A stretch of 9,005 nucleotides of DNA, taken from a virus. Its lineage: Duplodnaviria > Heunggongvirae > Uroviricota > Caudoviricetes. The notes below the pieces were generated by a model. The model saw only the letters and a program-made list of their open reading frames with translations, was not told the origin of the DNA and made no database searches. The translations under genes and the position numbers were made by a program. The stretch lies in the IMG/VR virus record IMGVR_UViG_3300014919_000042. One strand, given 5' to 3'. Below, piece after piece: positions 596 to 3,760 of the stretch. How positions within the stretch are numbered: position 1 is the stretch's first letter; each line of letters begins with the position of its first letter.

Positions 596-1524
596 GCAAC
601 ATTAACTATCAGGTACTGCGTGAAAAGGCAGAGAAAGCAACTAAAGGAAGCTACATCGTAGGGCATACATCTGTTAACCAACACGGCAATTTAACAGGAG
701 TTTTTGTTTGTCAAAAATGGAAAGGAGAACCCGGTGGCGTAATTGCAGAATGTCACGTTAACTGCCTGGTTGAAACAGATGCTCAGGCTTATGCAAACGC
801 TGAATTCATAGCAGAGGCTAACCCGGCTACCGTGCTGGCACTGCTGGATGAACAGGAANNNNNNNNNNNNNNNNNNNNNNNNNNNNNNNNNNNNGAGGAT
901 ATTGCGCTTACGGTTGGGAGGCTGCGCGTTGAGCTGGAAGGCAAAGACAGCAAAATAGCCAATCTTACCGCCGAACGCGATGCTCTTCGTGAAGGTGAGA
1001 TGGGCGACGCTAGGCATAGCAACACACGGGCCGCAGCTGATATCTACTTCCAACTGGTCGAGGAATGCGAAATTCCTGCTGGCGGATCTCTGGTCGAGTA
1101 CGTTGACGATATGCGCGAGAAGCTGGAAGCCGCAGAGAAGCGCATTGCAGAACTGGAAGCACGGGAAATAAAACCAGCCAAAGGCGAAGTTCTTGTCGTT
1201 GTTTCTGGTTTTACTGGTTGCGGAAAAAGCGCCATCGCCGGGGAAATAGAAATCGCGATGAAGGCTATTGGTGTACCGGTTCAGTGGACTAATGGCGATG
1301 TGGAAAAGCGCATGACAGGAGCTGACTGGCTGACAGCGATTGAGATGTACAAACCAACAGTGCGCATCGTGGAAGTTAATGTGCCACGCGCCCCCGGCAT
1401 TCGCCTCAAAGGAGAGAGAGAATGCAAATTTCACCGGTTACTCTTCGTGTTGCGAAGGCGTTTATATCCAGACATCACCGACACAATAAACCCCCGGTGG
1501 GGCATAAATTCAGCATTGGTCTGA
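592..1524 (+). CDS. Ea22-like (ead/Ea22 family) prophage protein with central coiled coil; interrupted by a 36-nt N run; true 3' end uncertain
   Basis: GTG start 6 nt after a strong RBS AAAGGAGG (578..585). N-terminal segment ...AYANAEFIAEANPATVLALLDEQE resembles the conserved N-terminus I recall for Ea22-like proteins. Central region is charged and heptad-like (LRVELEGKDSKIANLTAERDALR ... REKLEAAEKRIAELEARE). A Walker-A-like GFTGCGKS lies at 1207..1230. The last 103 nt overlap the next gene out of frame. Confidence 0.6.
   Translation: MSNINYQVLREKAEKATKGSYIVGHTSVNQHGNLTGVFVCQKWKGEPGGVIAECHVNCLVETDAQAYANAEFIAEANPATVLALLDEQEXXXXXXXXXXXXEDIALTVGRLRVELEGKDSKIANLTAERDALREGEMGDARHSNTRAAADIYFQLVEECEIPAGGSLVEYVDDMREKLEAAEKRIAELEAREIKPAKGEVLVVVSGFTGCGKSAIAGEIEIAMKAIGVPVQWTNGDVEKRMTGADWLTAIEMYKPTVRIVEVNVPRAPGIRLKGERECKFHRLLFVLRRRLYPDITDTINPRWGINSALV
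859..894. other. Run of 36 N (assembly gap or masked bases) inside the Ea22-like CDS
   Basis: 36 consecutive n characters. The reading frame is open and consistent on both sides if the gap is a multiple of 3. Confidence 0.99.
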
Positions 1525-1949
1525 GAAATGATGCCGGAGAATTGATAGGTGTGGCGACAGCCGGTAGACCTGTTGCACGACATTTGGACGATGGATTAAC
1601 GCTTGAAGTAAATCGCACATGTACCACAGGAGAACGCAACGCTAACAGCGCGCTTTATGGTGCTGTCTGGCGGGCAGCAAAGGCTATGGGTTATCAACGT
1701 TGTATTACGTACACCCAGGCAGATGAATCAGGAGCATCTCTCCGCGCAGCTGGTTTTGTTCGTGTGAAAGAGCTTCCTCCAAGAAAAAGCTGGGCGGAAT
1801 CAAGCGTCGCCCTGCGGAGTAAACGCGATCCGGTCGGAAACGGTGGTGTTCCTCGTGTGCTCTGGGAAATCAGGAGAATGAGTACCACTGGCATTCGCAT
1901 CAAAGCAGCGGGATATGACCACTATTACCAGAGAAAGCTCGAAGATTAA
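1422..1949 (+). CDS. Hypothetical prophage protein (175 aa) with weak GNAT-like acyltransferase signature
   Basis: ATG at 1422 preceded by AAAGGAGAGAGAG. Coherent, non-repetitive translation. Segment LEVNRTCTTGERNANSALYGAVWRAAKAMGY...ESGASLRAAGF resembles the GNAT core (strand, helix, then N-x-x-S-x-x-L-x-x-x-GF). Has an RHHRHNKPPVGH motif near the N-terminus. Confidence 0.55.
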   Translation: MQISPVTLRVAKAFISRHHRHNKPPVGHKFSIGLRNDAGELIGVATAGRPVARHLDDGLTLEVNRTCTTGERNANSALYGAVWRAAKAMGYQRCITYTQADESGASLRAAGFVRVKELPPRKSWAESSVALRSKRDPVGNGGVPRVLWEIRRMSTTGIRIKAAGYDHYYQRKLED

Positions 1950-2364
1950 ATCATTCATCAATGGCTTCCTGAGCGACCCAGCGCACGATAACCAATCCTC
2001 AGACAGCCTGCTTGCCAATGTGTTTCGTATCGCACAGGCATCGCTGGAAGCAGAGCCGATAGCGTGGCGATATCGCTATGTGAAAAAAGGCGTTACGGAC
2101 TCTCAGGGGGAGCAGTGGGTTGGTGACTGGAAATATGTACCGACAAAAGAGGATTGCAACGACAGGCCGAACTATGAAATTCAGGCGTTATTCACCGCTC
2201 CACCTGTGCCACTGACACCAGAAGGATTGATTAAAGCAGTGCGCTTCTATGAACAGGTTAAGCGTGAAAATCCGCCAGTCGAAACCGGAGCATGGAAAGA
2301 CGCTGTTGACTGGGTGCTCAAAGAGGCTTGCCAGGCTGTAAACATTGGTACCAAAGGAGATTGA
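1915..2364 (+). CDS. Hypothetical prophage protein (149 aa) sharing an N-terminal module with the downstream DUF551 protein
   Basis: ATG at 1915, overlapping the upstream gene end by 35 nt. Stop TGA 2362..2364 lies 1 nt before the next ATG. Contains ASLEAEPIAW and APPVP motifs that recur in the next gene. Confidence 0.55.
   Translation: MTTITRESSKIKSFINGFLSDPAHDNQSSDSLLANVFRIAQASLEAEPIAWRYRYVKKGVTDSQGEQWVGDWKYVPTKEDCNDRPNYEIQALFTAPPVPLTPEGLIKAVRFYEQVKRENPPVETGAWKDAVDWVLKEACQAVNIGTKGD
2041..2058 (+). repeat. 18-nt perfect direct repeat TCGCTGGAAGCAGAGCCG, copy 1 (in the 149-aa gene)
   Basis: Identical 18-mer at 2041..2058 and 2474..2491, encoding SLEAEP in both genes. A second related stretch CCGCTCC(A/G)CCTGTGCC lies at 2196..2211 and 2607..2622, encoding APPVP. 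Confidence 0.9.
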
Positions 2365-2365
2365 T

Positions 2366-3313
2366 ATGAGCACTTTTACCGACAAAGAACTGATTAAAGA
2401 AATCAAAGAGCGCATAGGCAGCCTGGACGTGAGAGACAATATTGAGCGCCGGGCTTATGAAATAGCGTTAGCCTCGCTGGAAGCAGAGCCGGTGGCATGG
2501 GTAATGGCTGACGACCTTAGAGATAATGCAATTGTATCTACCCCGGCCTACCCATGTCTGGATGATGCGAAAGAGCGAACAATTGGCAGTTTGATTGCTT
2601 TGTACGCCGCTCCGCCTGTGCCGGTAATACAGGCTGATGTCGCGCAAGCAATTGAAAATCTCAAGCAGAAGTTAGTGGAGTGCAATCGCTATAACTACTG
2701 CGCAGATGCAGTTAAAGATGTTGAGGATGCCAGCCGCGTCTTGGCACTCCAAAATCAAAATATGTCAGCGCCGATAACGCCGGAGGCCATTGAAAACGCA
2801 ATTGAATACATCCGCAGTATCGCTTTTCACATCGATGAAGACGATTACCACGGCAAACATATTGCGTATTTCATGCGACAAGCATTGGCCTGGCTGGAAG
2901 GGCATTCATGCAGCGACGACAGACTGGGTAAAGCCGAGAATCAAACAGTACACGGCAACCAGGCTGCCGAATCCAATCGCGGTAATGAGTGGACCGGCAA
3001 TCCTGATATTGATAACGCCATCATCATGCTCGATCGCATAGATACGCTGGAAAGTTGCGATGATGACCGTATTGAGGCGGTTAAGGCTGTTTTGCGTAGA
3101 CTGGCTGGCAACTATCCGGTAACTCCGGATGGTTGGATAAGCTGTAGTGAGCGAATGCCCGATCAAGATGATTGGATTTTAATTTATTCAAAGCACGGTG
3201 AGTATATGGCAGGCCAGGTGCAAGGGGAATACGTGGAGTTGAGCGACGGCACTTTATCGTGGTTAGGGAACGCCTTGTTCTGGATGCCTCTACCAGAACC
3301 GCCGCAGGGGTGA
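2366..3313 (+). CDS. DUF551 domain-containing prophage protein
   Basis: ATG at 2366 with RBS GGAG (2356..2359), preferred over the in-frame TTG at 2345 used by the ORF track. C-terminus DGWISCSERMPDQDDWILIYSKHGEYMAGQ...LFWMPLPEPP matches the DUF551 pattern (W-x-x-V-x-D-x-LP ... WMPLPEPP). Confidence 0.8.
   Translation: MSTFTDKELIKEIKERIGSLDVRDNIERRAYEIALASLEAEPVAWVMADDLRDNAIVSTPAYPCLDDAKERTIGSLIALYAAPPVPVIQADVAQAIENLKQKLVECNRYNYCADAVKDVEDASRVLALQNQNMSAPITPEAIENAIEYIRSIAFHIDEDDYHGKHIAYFMRQALAWLEGHSCSDDRLGKAENQTVHGNQAAESNRGNEWTGNPDIDNAIIMLDRIDTLESCDDDRIEAVKAVLRRLAGNYPVTPDGWISCSERMPDQDDWILIYSKHGEYMAGQVQGEYVELSDGTLSWLGNALFWMPLPEPPQG
2474..2491 (+). repeat. 18-nt perfect direct repeat TCGCTGGAAGCAGAGCCG, copy 2 (in the DUF551 gene)
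   Basis: See copy 1. The two copies are 433 nt apart, in frame in both genes. Confidence 0.9.
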
Positions 3314-3379
3314 AATGATGCTTGGCCTGAAGTATTTTATGTAATTGGTATTGCTATATTTTTATCTGGGGATAAACGA

Positions 3380-3622
3380 ATGTTCTCTCTGATTCAACGT
3401 GGTCAGATATACACCGATAGCGCTGGCTATCCAGTAAAAATCATTCGTAGTACTGATCACTCAGTGTTCTTCAAGAGGATGGATGGCTATCCTGGAAGGG
3501 TGTGCATCAGAAAATTCAATAATTTATTCGAACACATTGATCACAGAGAATATCACCAGATCCTGGCTGAAACAGAACAGGAAGCTCATCTGAAAAAATT
3601 ACGGGCCATGAAAAGGAAGTAA
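3380..3622 (+). CDS. Hypothetical small prophage protein (80 aa), possibly DUF4222-like
   Basis: ATG at 3380 after GGGGATAAACGA. Follows the only sizeable intergenic gap in the prophage part. Family assignment is from memory only. Confidence 0.55.
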   Translation: MFSLIQRGQIYTDSAGYPVKIIRSTDHSVFFKRMDGYPGRVCIRKFNNLFEHIDHREYHQILAETEQEAHLKKLRAMKRK

Positions 3623-3625
3623 ACA

Positions 3626-3760
3626 ATGAATAAAGCATTTGAACGATGGGTCCACCAGCGTTACGGCAATCGCTATGATCTGACGCGAGATGTTGACGGT
3701 TTCTACTGTCGTGAAGTTGTGAAGCGAATGTTTGAAGTGTGGTGCCACTGCCGTGGATGA
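3626..3760 (+). CDS. Hypothetical small protein (44 aa) with Cys/His cluster; not in the supplied ORF track
   Basis: ATG at 3626 preceded by AAAAGGAAG with a 6-nt spacer. Translation MNKAFERWVHQRYGNRYDLTRDVDGFYCREVVKRMFEVWCHCRG, stop TGA 3758..3760. It exactly fills the space between its neighbours. Confidence 0.45.
   Translation: MNKAFERWVHQRYGNRYDLTRDVDGFYCREVVKRMFEVWCHCRG

What the first reader, a model, noticed from the sequence alone, without database searches (positions are those of the whole stretch)
1422..3760. Accessory cassette of five uncharacterised genes between the Ea22-like gene and the excisionase
Lambdoid phages carry non-essential, highly variable genes in this position, between the recombination functions and int/xis. 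Five consecutive ORFs here have no function I can assign: a 175-aa GNAT-like candidate, a 149-aa modular protein, a DUF551 protein, and 80-aa and 44-aa small proteins. They are translationally coupled, so probably co-expressed from the early-left transcript. If the window holds an undescribed phage-host interaction module (superinfection exclusion, anti-restriction or similar), this is the most plausible location. I cannot demonstrate a specific system from sequence alone.
Basis: inference. Interest (0 to 1): 0.6.

Follow-up and report, generated by a model that had tools for sequence, protein, structure and literature searches.

The report
Mom-like DNA-modification gene in prophage accessory region
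The five genes are real, but they are an ordinary shuffled stretch of a lambda-type prophage rather than one system; the only gene of note is a small, uncharacterised enzyme related to phage Mu's Mom, which chemically marks phage DNA so that bacterial restriction enzymes cannot cut it.

Summary
All five ORFs exist as described: 1422-1949, 1915-2364, 2366-3313, 3380-3622 and 3626-3760, + strand, between an Ea22-like gene and xis/int of a prophage inserted in mlrA (yehV). They are not one cassette. This is the variable ea22-to-xis end of the lambdoid exo-xis region, a mosaic of modules that assort independently. Only 3 of 5426 complete E. coli genomes have the whole arrangement, while 3704 carry pieces of it. 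No PADLOC defence model matches.

The "GNAT-like" ORF is an XF1762-family protein (NCBIfam, 206 bits) in the same PHROG as phage Mu Mom. Its model is a GNAT fold with Mom (8BV8) as top structural hit. It keeps Mom's His58, Arg111 and Ser124 equivalents. It lacks Arg151, Tyr159 and the essential helix-turn-helix-like insertion, and it scores below Pfam's Mom cut-off. Relatives occur fused or adjacent to DNA methyltransferases and inside polyvalent proteins. My best guess is an early-expressed nucleic-acid (probably DNA) modifying, anti-restriction enzyme; the chemistry is unknown.

The gene is bracketed by a 26-bp repeat identical to the 3' end of lambda ea22. The other four genes (YfdT/DUF551-type modular proteins, DUF4222, a 44-aa protein) remain of unknown function.

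Interest is moderate.

The parts
592..1524 (+). Ead/Ea22-like gene (context, upstream boundary). It contains an N-run at 859-894. Its C-terminal ~80 aa carry a Walker-A-like GFTGCGKS. In all relatives the gene ends at TGA 1417-1419; here that codon is AGA and the ORF runs on to 1524.
   Evidence: PF13935, E 7e-25; phrog_250/368/11761; stop difference.
1391..1419 (+). Linker copy 1. It holds the end of the upstream ORF (..GIRIKGE*), a Shine-Dalgarno sequence and the stop codon. In relatives the core is CTGGCATTCGCATCAAAGGAGAGTGA. Here it carries 3 substitutions (1395, 1405, 1417).
   Evidence: Direct repeat D2; junction alignment; identical to the 3' end of lambda ea22.
1422..1949 (+). XF1762-family, Mom-related GNAT-fold protein (175 aa here, 163 aa in relatives; catalytic core about residues 1-155; pI about 11). 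This is a candidate nucleic-acid-modifying, anti-restriction enzyme.
1885..1913 (+). Linker copy 2 (3' end of XF1762, Shine-Dalgarno and stop before the 149-aa gene). Here it carries 3 substitutions (1906, 1909, 1911) that remove the TGA and the AAGGAGAG Shine-Dalgarno sequence.
1915..2364 (+). 149-aa modular protein (phrog_660). It shares the ASLEAEPxAW and APPVP modules with the next gene. Function unknown.
   Evidence: BLASTP against the DUF551 protein, E 4e-9; DNA repeats D1 and D3. In many other phages its C-terminal module lies upstream of XF1762.
2338..2365 (+). Degenerate third copy of the linker (AACATTGGTACCAAAGGAGATTGA) at the junction between the 149-aa gene and the DUF551 gene.
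2366..3313 (+). 315-aa acidic (pI 4.5) mosaic protein. It has a YfdT-like N-terminal 42 aa, helical middle modules and a C-terminal DUF551 domain. Function unknown.
   Evidence: PF04448, 43 bits; phrog_60/5117/924; 88% identity to YfdT over residues 1-42; full-length single-ORF homologues; AF2 model unusable, pLDDT 46.
3380..3622 (+). 80-aa basic DUF4222 protein. It co-travels with xis/int.
   Evidence: PF13973, 56 bits; phrog_285; co-occurrence with xis/int.
3626..3760 (+). 44-aa protein (phrog_3871), always found with the DUF4222 gene and next to xis.
3779..4033 (+). Excisionase (downstream boundary).
   Evidence: PF06806, E 2e-29.
4067..5353 (+). Tyrosine integrase, followed by the 5'-replaced mlrA (yehV).

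Best explanation
The stretch is the variable ea22-to-xis end of a lambdoid prophage's exo-xis (early-left) region. It is a string of independently exchangeable gene modules joined by short conserved linkers, not one multi-gene system.

One module, 1422-1949, encodes an XF1762-family enzyme. This is a short, very basic GNAT-fold protein that is a sister family of phage Mu Mom.

The likely mechanism is inferred, not shown. After induction or infection the enzyme is made from the early-left transcript. It binds nucleic acid and transfers an acyl or aminoacyl group onto a base, most likely in double-stranded DNA, using the His19/Arg65/Ser76 site that corresponds to Mom's His58/Arg111/Ser124. The donor could be acyl-CoA or, as in Mom, a charged tRNA. 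This would make replicated phage DNA resistant to host restriction.

The protein lacks Mom's Arg151, Tyr159 and long helix-turn-helix-like insertion. Its target sequence, its donor or its product may therefore differ from Mom's N6-carbamoylmethyl-adenine.

The other four genes are typical exo-xis accessory proteins of unknown function: a 149-aa modular protein, a YfdT/DUF551 mosaic protein, a DUF4222 protein and a 44-aa protein.
For: Shown here:
- Family assignment: NF045478 at 206 bits against a cut-off of 50. The protein falls in phrog_1384 (E 3.6e-42), which also contains Mu Mom itself (E 7.8e-84).
- Among 150 family representatives, 67 hit Pfam Mom at E <= 1e-4 and none hits any other GNAT Pfam family.
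- Profile-profile alignment to the Mom family gives E 1.4e-4. It pairs invariant H19, R65 and S76 with Mom H58, R111 and S124. R111 is Mom-specific and not a general GNAT residue (PMC7261163). R111 and S124 are essential in Mom (PMC13219725).
- Charge: pI about 11, compared with 10 for Mom.
- Links to DNA: relatives are fused to a C5 DNA methylase. Others are fused to a Dam-type methylase (six contigs), polyvalent-protein domains, an ssDNA-binding domain, RepA_N and recombinases. In Burkholderia phage phi1026b the homologue overlaps the start of a DNA methyltransferase gene.
- Conservation: 50-60% identity between enterobacterial and actinobacterial copies. I read this as pointing to a universal substrate.
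- Mosaicism; the flanking 26-bp linker is identical to the end of lambda ea22.
- Literature: the genes after ea22 are a variable set (PMC8614690).
Against: - The Pfam Mom score of 22.1 bits is below the gathering cut-off of 27.1.
- Mom's essential R151 falls in a 4-residue deletion, and Y159 is Leu.
- The insertion between strands 6 and 7, whose deletion kills Mom (PMC13219725), is only about 26 residues here against about 45 in Mom. It was not alignable.
- W48 (the dimer contact) and the basic N-terminal tail of Mom are absent.
- No experiment exists on any XF1762-family member (no paper found).
- The fusions are single representatives each.
- Nothing shows that DNA rather than RNA, protein or a small molecule is the acceptor.
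Confidence: 0.5

Rival explanations
1. The XF1762 protein is an ordinary acyl-CoA-dependent GNAT acting on something other than DNA, such as a host protein, a tRNA or aminoacyl-tRNA, a polyamine or an antibiotic-like compound. On this view it serves host takeover or lysogen fitness, not DNA protection.
For: - Structural matches to RimI, NatA-type and phosphinothricin/aminoglycoside acetyltransferases are almost as good as the match to Mom.
- M. abscessus prophage homologues are annotated simply as 'acetyltransferase'.
- Two residues and the insertion that are essential for Mom's DNA activity are missing (PMC13219725).
Against: - No family representative matches any acetyltransferase Pfam model; only Mom is matched.
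- The canonical Q/R-x-x-G-x-G/A CoA loop is not recognisable by eye in 'RTCTTGERNANS'.
- The Mom-specific Arg is invariant.
- Fusion and neighbour partners are DNA enzymes.
- There is no conserved antitoxin-like neighbour, as GNAT toxins would need.
Confidence: 0.25
2. The five genes act together as one phage-host interaction system (superinfection exclusion, defence or anti-defence).
For: The genes are on the same strand and tightly packed, with near-abutting stop and start codons in two blocks. They sit in a region known to hold accessory genes.
Against: - Only 3 of 5426 genomes share the arrangement, while the individual pieces are found in 3704.
- Neighbours of XF1762 differ from locus to locus, and the 149-aa type module is often on its other side.
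- There is no conserved partner across 34 genomes of other taxa.
- There are no PADLOC hits.
- DUF4222 and the 44-aa gene assort with xis/int instead.
Confidence: 0.04
3. The region acts, like the lambda/Stx exo-xis genes and K-12 CPS-53 yfdQRST, mainly as a modulator of the lysis-lysogeny decision or of host replication initiation. The YfdT/DUF551 and 149-aa proteins would be the effectors, and XF1762 an unrelated passenger.
For: - The position matches lambda's ea22-ea8.5-xis interval.
- Ea22 is pro-lysogenic, and other exo-xis genes affect induction (PMC7093339, PMC3824215).
- The first 42 aa of the DUF551 protein are 88% identical to YfdT.
- At multicopy, yfdQ and yfdR together with either yfdS (DUF551) or yfdT inhibit DnaA-dependent initiation (PMC4776307).
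- The near-identical prophage in L001 carries yfdP-Q-R just upstream.
Against: - The window's own upstream genes are different (p67 and p79, not yfdQR).
- Similarity to YfdT covers one short module only.
- No window protein is similar to lambda orf60a/61/63/ea8.5.
- The published phenotypes were obtained at multicopy, and deletion of yfdQRST had no effect (PMC4776307).
- This idea does not address XF1762.
Confidence: 0.2

Closest known systems
Phage Mu Mom (PF25680; PDB 8BV8), a Gly-tRNA(Gly)-dependent adenine N6-carbamoylmethylase that gives restriction evasion
   Same: - Same PHROG (1384).
- GNAT fold, with Mom as the top structural hit.
- Very basic protein.
- Equivalents of His58, Arg111 (Mom-specific), Asn121, Ser124 and Asp149/Glu150 are kept.
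- A phage-borne single gene with no conserved biosynthetic partner.

   Different: - About 155-residue core against 231-241 aa.
- No N-terminal basic tail and no Trp48 dimer contact.
- Tyr59 is Arg, Arg151 is deleted and Tyr159 is Leu.
- The insertion between strands 6 and 7 is about 26 aa instead of the ~45-aa connector holding Mom's essential helix-turn-helix-like insertion.
- Below the Pfam cut-off.
- No com-like translational activator. The gene sits in the early-left operon of a lambdoid phage, not at the late end of a transposable phage.
XF1762 family (NCBIfam NF045478), labelled 'Mom-like DNA modification protein' in PHROGs and RefSeq (examples: Burkholderia phi1026b gp66, Pectobacterium ZF40, E. 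coli phage Kapi1 gp007)
   Same: Full-length match at 206 bits. Identity is 92-100% to genes of cultured E. coli phages Kapi1, TL-2011a and PhiR44_2, and Kapi1 has the same position after an Ea22-like gene.
   Different: Nothing in sequence, apart from a 12-residue C-terminal extension here caused by the lost stop codon. The family itself has no experimentally characterised member that I could find.
Lambdoid exo-xis region (lambda orf60a-orf63-orf61-(orf73)-ea22-ea8.5-xis; Stx phages)
   Same: Same genomic interval and orientation, early-left transcription, and an Ea22-type gene followed by a variable gene set. The linker at the end of lambda ea22 is identical to the repeats flanking XF1762 (PMC8614690, PMC10834534).
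   Different: None of the lambda small ORFs or ea8.5 is present. The genes here (XF1762, the 149-aa protein, YfdT/DUF551, DUF4222, the 44-aa protein) are not among the exo-xis genes studied in the papers I consulted.
E. coli K-12 CPS-53 YfdS (DUF551) and YfdT
   Same: The N-terminal 42 aa are 88% identical to YfdT, and the C-terminal domain is DUF551, as in YfdS.
   Different: Here both modules plus about 200 aa of other modules are fused in one 315-aa acidic protein. The YfdQ/YfdR partners needed for the published replication phenotype are not in the window.

Membership tests
Mom family (Pfam PF25680) | Score at or above Pfam's gathering cut-off (27.1 bits) | tested here: not met
   22.1 bits, E 1.3e-4, covering profile positions 3-118 of 202 only. 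Some more distant XF1762-type relatives do pass, at 27.3-32.5 bits.
Mom family (Pfam PF25680) | GNAT fold closest to the Mom crystal structure | tested here: met
Mom family (Pfam PF25680) | Catalytic residues His58, Arg111 (Mom-specific) and Ser124 | tested here: met
   hhalign of the XF1762 profile against the Mom profile (E 1.4e-4) pairs H19, R65 and S76 with them. H19 and R65 are invariant and S76 is conserved in at least 90% of 42 diverse members.
Mom family (Pfam PF25680) | Essential Arg151 and important Tyr59, Tyr159 and Trp48 | tested here: not met
   R151 lies in a 4-residue gap. Y159 aligns with L107 and Y59 with R20; by my reading of the same alignment W48 falls at non-aromatic V10.
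Mom family (Pfam PF25680) | Helix-turn-helix-like insertion (Mom ~175-209) between strands 6 and 7, required for activity | tested here: not met
   The model has only about 26 residues (119-144) there, forming two short helices of low confidence (pLDDT 63-73). The profile alignment stops at residue 118.
Mom family (Pfam PF25680) | Forms N6-carbamoylmethyl-dA from Gly-tRNA(Gly) and protects DNA from restriction | not testable with these tools
   Needs expression followed by nucleoside LC-MS and restriction assays.
XF1762 family (NCBIfam NF045478) | Score at or above the curated cut-off (50 bits) over the full model | tested here: met
   206 bits, E 2e-61, model positions 2-130 of 143. RefSeq names the identical gene 'XF1762 family protein'.
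Canonical acetyl-CoA-dependent GNAT acetyltransferases | Match to an acetyltransferase Pfam family, and a Q/R-x-x-G-x-G/A pyrophosphate-binding loop before helix 3 | tested here: not met
   No Acetyltransf_* hit for the query or for 150 representatives. The loop reads R-T-C-T-T-G-E-R-N-A-N-S (read directly from the sequence). CoA binding itself was not tested.
Known anti-phage defence systems (PADLOC-DB v2) | Any component model matched | tested here: not met
   No hits at E <= 0.1 for the nine proteins scanned (two upstream ORFs through xis, which includes all five in question).
GNAT toxin-antitoxin pairs (TacT/AtaT type) | Conserved small antitoxin gene directly adjacent | tested here: not met
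   No conserved neighbour in 34 genomic loci and 80 viral loci.
Lambdoid exo-xis region | Lies between the recombination genes and xis in the early-left operon and starts with an Ead/Ea22 gene | tested here: met
   Ea22-like PF13935 gene, then the five genes, then xis and int. Same order as in lambda and Kapi1.
Lambdoid exo-xis region | Conserved block orf60a-orf63-orf61-orf73 | tested here: not met
   tblastn of the window proteins against lambda finds only a 21-aa Ea22 segment and the linker. The window's p67 and p79 belong to other PHROGs.
DUF551 (PF04448) and DUF4222 (PF13973) | Pfam gathering cut-offs | tested here: met
   43.4 bits against 22, and 56.1 bits against 27.

The most novel reading that the evidence does not exclude
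XF1762-type enzymes are a second, much larger branch of Mom-like GNATs: 3818 clusters at 50% identity, in temperate phages and mobile elements. Hosts seen here include Proteobacteria, Actinobacteria and Acidobacteria, and cyanobacterial and Pelagibacter phages also carry it. On this reading they install a DNA (or RNA) base modification different from Mu's. They would work without the helix-turn-helix-like insertion and Arg151, possibly with another aminoacyl-tRNA or acyl donor or another target base. That would be a widespread, undescribed phage nucleic-acid hypermodification, here carried by E. coli prophages.
Probability: 0.2. Interest if true: 0.75.

Novelty: new variant of a known kind. 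Interest (0 to 1): 0.4.

Why it matters
Mom was for decades a one-off: a single enzyme that hypermodifies adenine in DNA. It was only recently shown to use charged tRNA as its donor.

The protein family found here keeps Mom's catalytic core but lacks features that Mom needs. It gave about seven times as many hits as Mu Mom in the same search (5696 against 843). It is present in cultured E. coli phages such as Kapi1, which makes it easy to test.

If it modifies DNA, that would:
- add a new member or new chemistry to phage anti-restriction;
- affect restriction, sequencing and engineering of such phages;
- explain why DNA methyltransferases are repeatedly fused to it.

If it does not, it helps define which features make a GNAT a DNA modifier.

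For the rest of the stretch, the value is negative but useful. The five genes are not a hidden defence system. The linker repeats show how such modules are swapped.

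Tried and rejected
- PADLOC scan of the nine ORFs from the two upstream genes through xis: nothing.
- Rfam scan of the whole window: nothing.
- Promoter and terminator scan: promoter-like sites fewer than in shuffles, and terminator-like sites, though more numerous than in shuffles (15 against 5.9), weak (7 or fewer stem pairs inside the stretch).
- ORFs on the minus strand and in alternative frames within 1422-3760: no credible family hits.
- PDB sequence searches with XF1762 (single sequence and shallow profile), the 149-aa protein, the DUF551 protein and DUF4222: no significant hit.
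- hhalign of XF1762 profiles against the single Mom sequence was weak (E 0.013-0.015). It became informative only against a Mom family profile.
- Search for a conserved partner gene: none found, by all-against-all ORF clustering in 34 genomes, a Pfam census of 124 neighbouring genes and tblastn mapping in 80 viral loci. I considered a two-gene unit made of the P-loop-like Ea22 C-terminal module plus XF1762, and rejected it because the module is upstream in only 5 of 80 loci.
- AF2 model of the DUF551 protein: pLDDT 46, so I did not use it for fold search.
- Literature: no paper mentions XF1762. The papers mentioning DUF4222 or DUF551 give no function beyond YfdS/YfdT.
- Search for the window's variant linker 45-mers in 5426 E. 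coli genomes: none.
- The search for related loci with the diverse alignment failed because it had no conserved stretch.

Full report
**1. What is there**

The window is the left arm of a lambdoid prophage inserted in mlrA (yehV), followed by yohO and yehW-X-Y. From 895 to 9005 it aligns without gaps to E. coli 19AR1724 (98.6% identity). The prophage part (895-5400) differs at only six positions. The host part differs at 104 positions, mostly synonymous third-codon positions.

The five ORFs of the finding are all present on the + strand:
- 1422-1949 (175 aa)
- 1915-2364 (149 aa)
- 2366-3313 (315 aa from the ATG behind a Shine-Dalgarno sequence; the mechanical ORF starts at TTG 2345)
- 3380-3622 (80 aa)
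- 3626-3760 (44 aa)

They lie between an Ead/Ea22-like gene (592-1524) and xis (3779-4033) and int (4067-5353).

'Translational coupling' is plausible for genes 1-3 and for genes 4-5. A 66-nt gap separates the two groups. No strong promoter or terminator signal and no Rfam family lie in the stretch.

**2. It is not a cassette**

- The full 2.3-kb arrangement occurs in 3 of 5426 complete E. coli genomes, while pieces of it occur in 3704.
- The first gene alone occurs in 154 genomes.
- In 80 viral contigs that carry this gene, the neighbours vary. The P-loop-like Ea22 C-terminal module that precedes it here is upstream in only 5. A module like the C-terminus of the 149-aa protein is matched in 37 loci, mostly directly upstream, which is the opposite order from the window. 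DUF4222 and the 44-aa gene appear only together and with xis/int (also Stx1 phages).
- In 34 genomes of other taxa no neighbour is conserved.
- No protein matches a PADLOC defence model.
- The position corresponds to lambda's ea22-ea8.5-xis interval. [quoted passage not shown]

**3. How the modules are joined**

In the near-identical references, the first gene is bracketed by a perfect 26-bp direct repeat, CTGGCATTCGCATCAAAGGAGAGTGA. This repeat encodes the last residues (..GIRIKGE) of the preceding protein, a Shine-Dalgarno sequence and the stop codon. The same sequence is the 3' end of lambda ea22. A degenerate copy sits at the next junction (2338-2365).

Such shared linkers are an obvious substrate for module exchange by homologous recombination. 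That role is inference.

**4. The first gene**

*Family and fold*
- It is an XF1762-family protein (NCBIfam NF045478, 206 bits against a cut-off of 50).
- It falls in PHROG 1384, 'Mom-like DNA modification protein' (E 3.6e-42). Mu Mom itself is in that PHROG (E 7.8e-84).
- Pfam's Mom model gives 22.1 bits, below the 27.1 cut-off. However, 67 of 150 family representatives hit Mom at E <= 1e-4, and none hits another GNAT family.
- With a 42-sequence alignment, AlphaFold2 gives a confident GNAT model (pLDDT 87.8).

*Residues compared with Mom*

A profile-profile alignment to a Mom family alignment (E 1.4e-4, 117 columns) gives these pairings:

| XF1762 | Mom | Note |
|---|---|---|
| H19 | H58 | invariant in the XF1762 family |
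| R65 | R111 | invariant; Mom-specific, not a general GNAT residue (PMC7261163) |
| N73 | N121 | |
| S76 | S124 | |
| D101 / E102 | D149 / E150 | |
| R20 | Y59 | not conserved |
| 4-residue gap | R151 | deleted |
| L107 | Y159 | not conserved |

- R111, S124 and R151 are essential in Mom, as is the helix-turn-helix-like insertion at 175-209 (PMC13219725).
- Here the loop at that position is only about 26 residues and is modelled with low confidence.
- The protein is as basic as Mom (pI about 11 against 10).

*Distribution and context*
- The family is large: 5696 clusters at 90% identity, against 843 for Mu Mom in the same kind of search, and 3818 clusters at 50% identity.
- It spans Proteobacteria, Actinobacteria, Acidobacteria and phages of cyanobacteria and Pelagibacter, with 50-60% identity across phyla.
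- Relatives are fused to a C5 DNA methylase and to a Dam-type methylase (six independent contigs). Other fusion partners are polyvalent-protein domains, an ssDNA-binding domain, RepA_N and recombinases.
- In Burkholderia phage phi1026b the homologue overlaps the start of a DNA methyltransferase gene.
- In actinobacterial loci the gene often sits next to a serine integrase.
- No paper mentions the family.

**5. Interpretation of the first gene**

- Shown: it is a Mom-clade GNAT with a conserved His/Arg/Ser site, it is highly basic, it is carried by mobile elements, and it is repeatedly linked to DNA enzymes.
- Inferred: it is expressed from the early-left transcript after induction. It transfers an acyl or aminoacyl group to a base in nucleic acid, most likely DNA, and so protects phage DNA from restriction.
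- Not a Mom family member: it fails three defining tests for Mom (the Pfam cut-off, Arg151/Tyr159, and the essential insertion). I treat it as a sister family that may use a different target, donor or product.
- Main rival: a conventional acyltransferase acting on a non-DNA substrate.

**6. The other four genes**

- *149-aa protein and DUF551 protein.* They share the ASLEAEPxAW and APPVP modules.
- *DUF551 protein.* It is acidic (pI 4.5). Its first 42 residues are 88% identical to K-12 YfdT, and it ends in DUF551, as YfdS does. At multicopy, yfdQ and yfdR together with either yfdS or yfdT inhibit replication initiation (PMC4776307). That is a lead, not an assignment, because yfdQ and yfdR are not in the window. 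Its AF2 model was too poor to use.
- *DUF4222 and the 44-aa protein.* Both are small and basic, and they are always found with xis/int. No function is known for either.

**7. An oddity**

The six substitutions that distinguish the prophage part of the window from its relatives all fall inside the two linker copies.
- Positions 1395, 1405 and 1417 convert the TGA of the Ea22-like gene to AGA. That adds 35 codons and creates a 103-nt overlap with XF1762.
- Positions 1906, 1909 and 1911 remove the TGA of XF1762, making it 175 instead of 163 aa, and destroy the Shine-Dalgarno sequence of the 149-aa gene.
- No complete E. coli genome carries either variant.
- By my own arithmetic, six of six hits landing in 52 of 4052 bp is about 4e-12 by chance.
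- I cannot distinguish gene conversion, selection against repeat-mediated loss, sequence error and sequence editing.
- The catalytic core of XF1762 is unaffected.

**8. Verdict**

The stretch is the ordinary, variable end of the exo-xis region and is not a system. Its one notable gene is an uncharacterised, widespread Mom-like GNAT that is easy to test. Novelty: a new variant of a known kind. Interest is moderate (0.4).

Noticed in passing
window 1395, 1405, 1417 and 1906, 1909, 1911: The only six differences from the otherwise identical prophage in E. coli 19AR1724 and two IMG/VR contigs all lie in the two 26-bp linker copies flanking the XF1762 gene. Each group removes the upstream gene's TGA stop. 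No complete E. coli genome has these variants. The cause is unknown (gene conversion, selection, error or edit).
   Followed up: partly
window 1177-1419 (C-terminal ~80 aa of the Ea22-like protein): A small module with a Walker-A-like motif GFTGCGKS (phrog_11761; weak adenylyl-sulfate-kinase-type hits). It is too short for a complete P-loop NTPase. It is upstream of XF1762 in only 5 of 80 viral loci, so it is not an obligate partner.
   Followed up: partly
window 859-894 and 1-858: A run of 36 N lies inside the Ea22-like gene and coincides with a mosaic break. DNA to its left (67-aa and 79-aa ORFs, Ea22 N-terminus) is unrelated to the reference prophage that matches everything to its right.
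   Followed up: partly
window 1391-1419, 1885-1913, 2338-2365; lambda locus L117 7851-7876 (minus strand): A conserved linker (end of ORF, Shine-Dalgarno, stop) is repeated at successive gene junctions and is identical to the 3' end of lambda ea22. It is a likely recombination substrate for module shuffling in the exo-xis region.
   Followed up: yes
window 2366-3313; L001 9945-10892: The DUF551 gene is one uninterrupted ORF here, and 99%-identical full-length homologues are annotated as single proteins. RefSeq nevertheless splits the identical sequence in strain 19AR1724 into a 'partial pseudogene' plus a shorter CDS. This is probably an annotation artefact of its mosaic architecture. The protein is strongly acidic (pI 4.5).
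   Followed up: partly
window 5354-9005: The prophage is integrated in mlrA (yehV), whose 5' end is replaced by phage-side sequence. The host flank is about 97% identical to E. coli 19AR1724, with mostly synonymous changes, while the prophage is almost identical. This suggests recent horizontal spread of the prophage between diverged lineages.
   Followed up: partly
loci L118 (158-2134), L119-L121 (4001-5359), L123 (3995-5739): XF1762-type domains occur fused to a C5 DNA methylase and to a Dam-type methylase on independent metagenome contigs. In Burkholderia phage phi1026b the domain is directly coupled to a DNA methyltransferase gene. A BFVD hit places the domain inside an 877-aa polyvalent protein.
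   Followed up: partly
window 3380-3760: The DUF4222 gene and the 44-aa gene always occur together and next to xis/int (also in the Stx1 phages VT1-Sakai, BP-4795 and YYZ-2008). They look like part of the integration module rather than of the variable region.
   Followed up: partly
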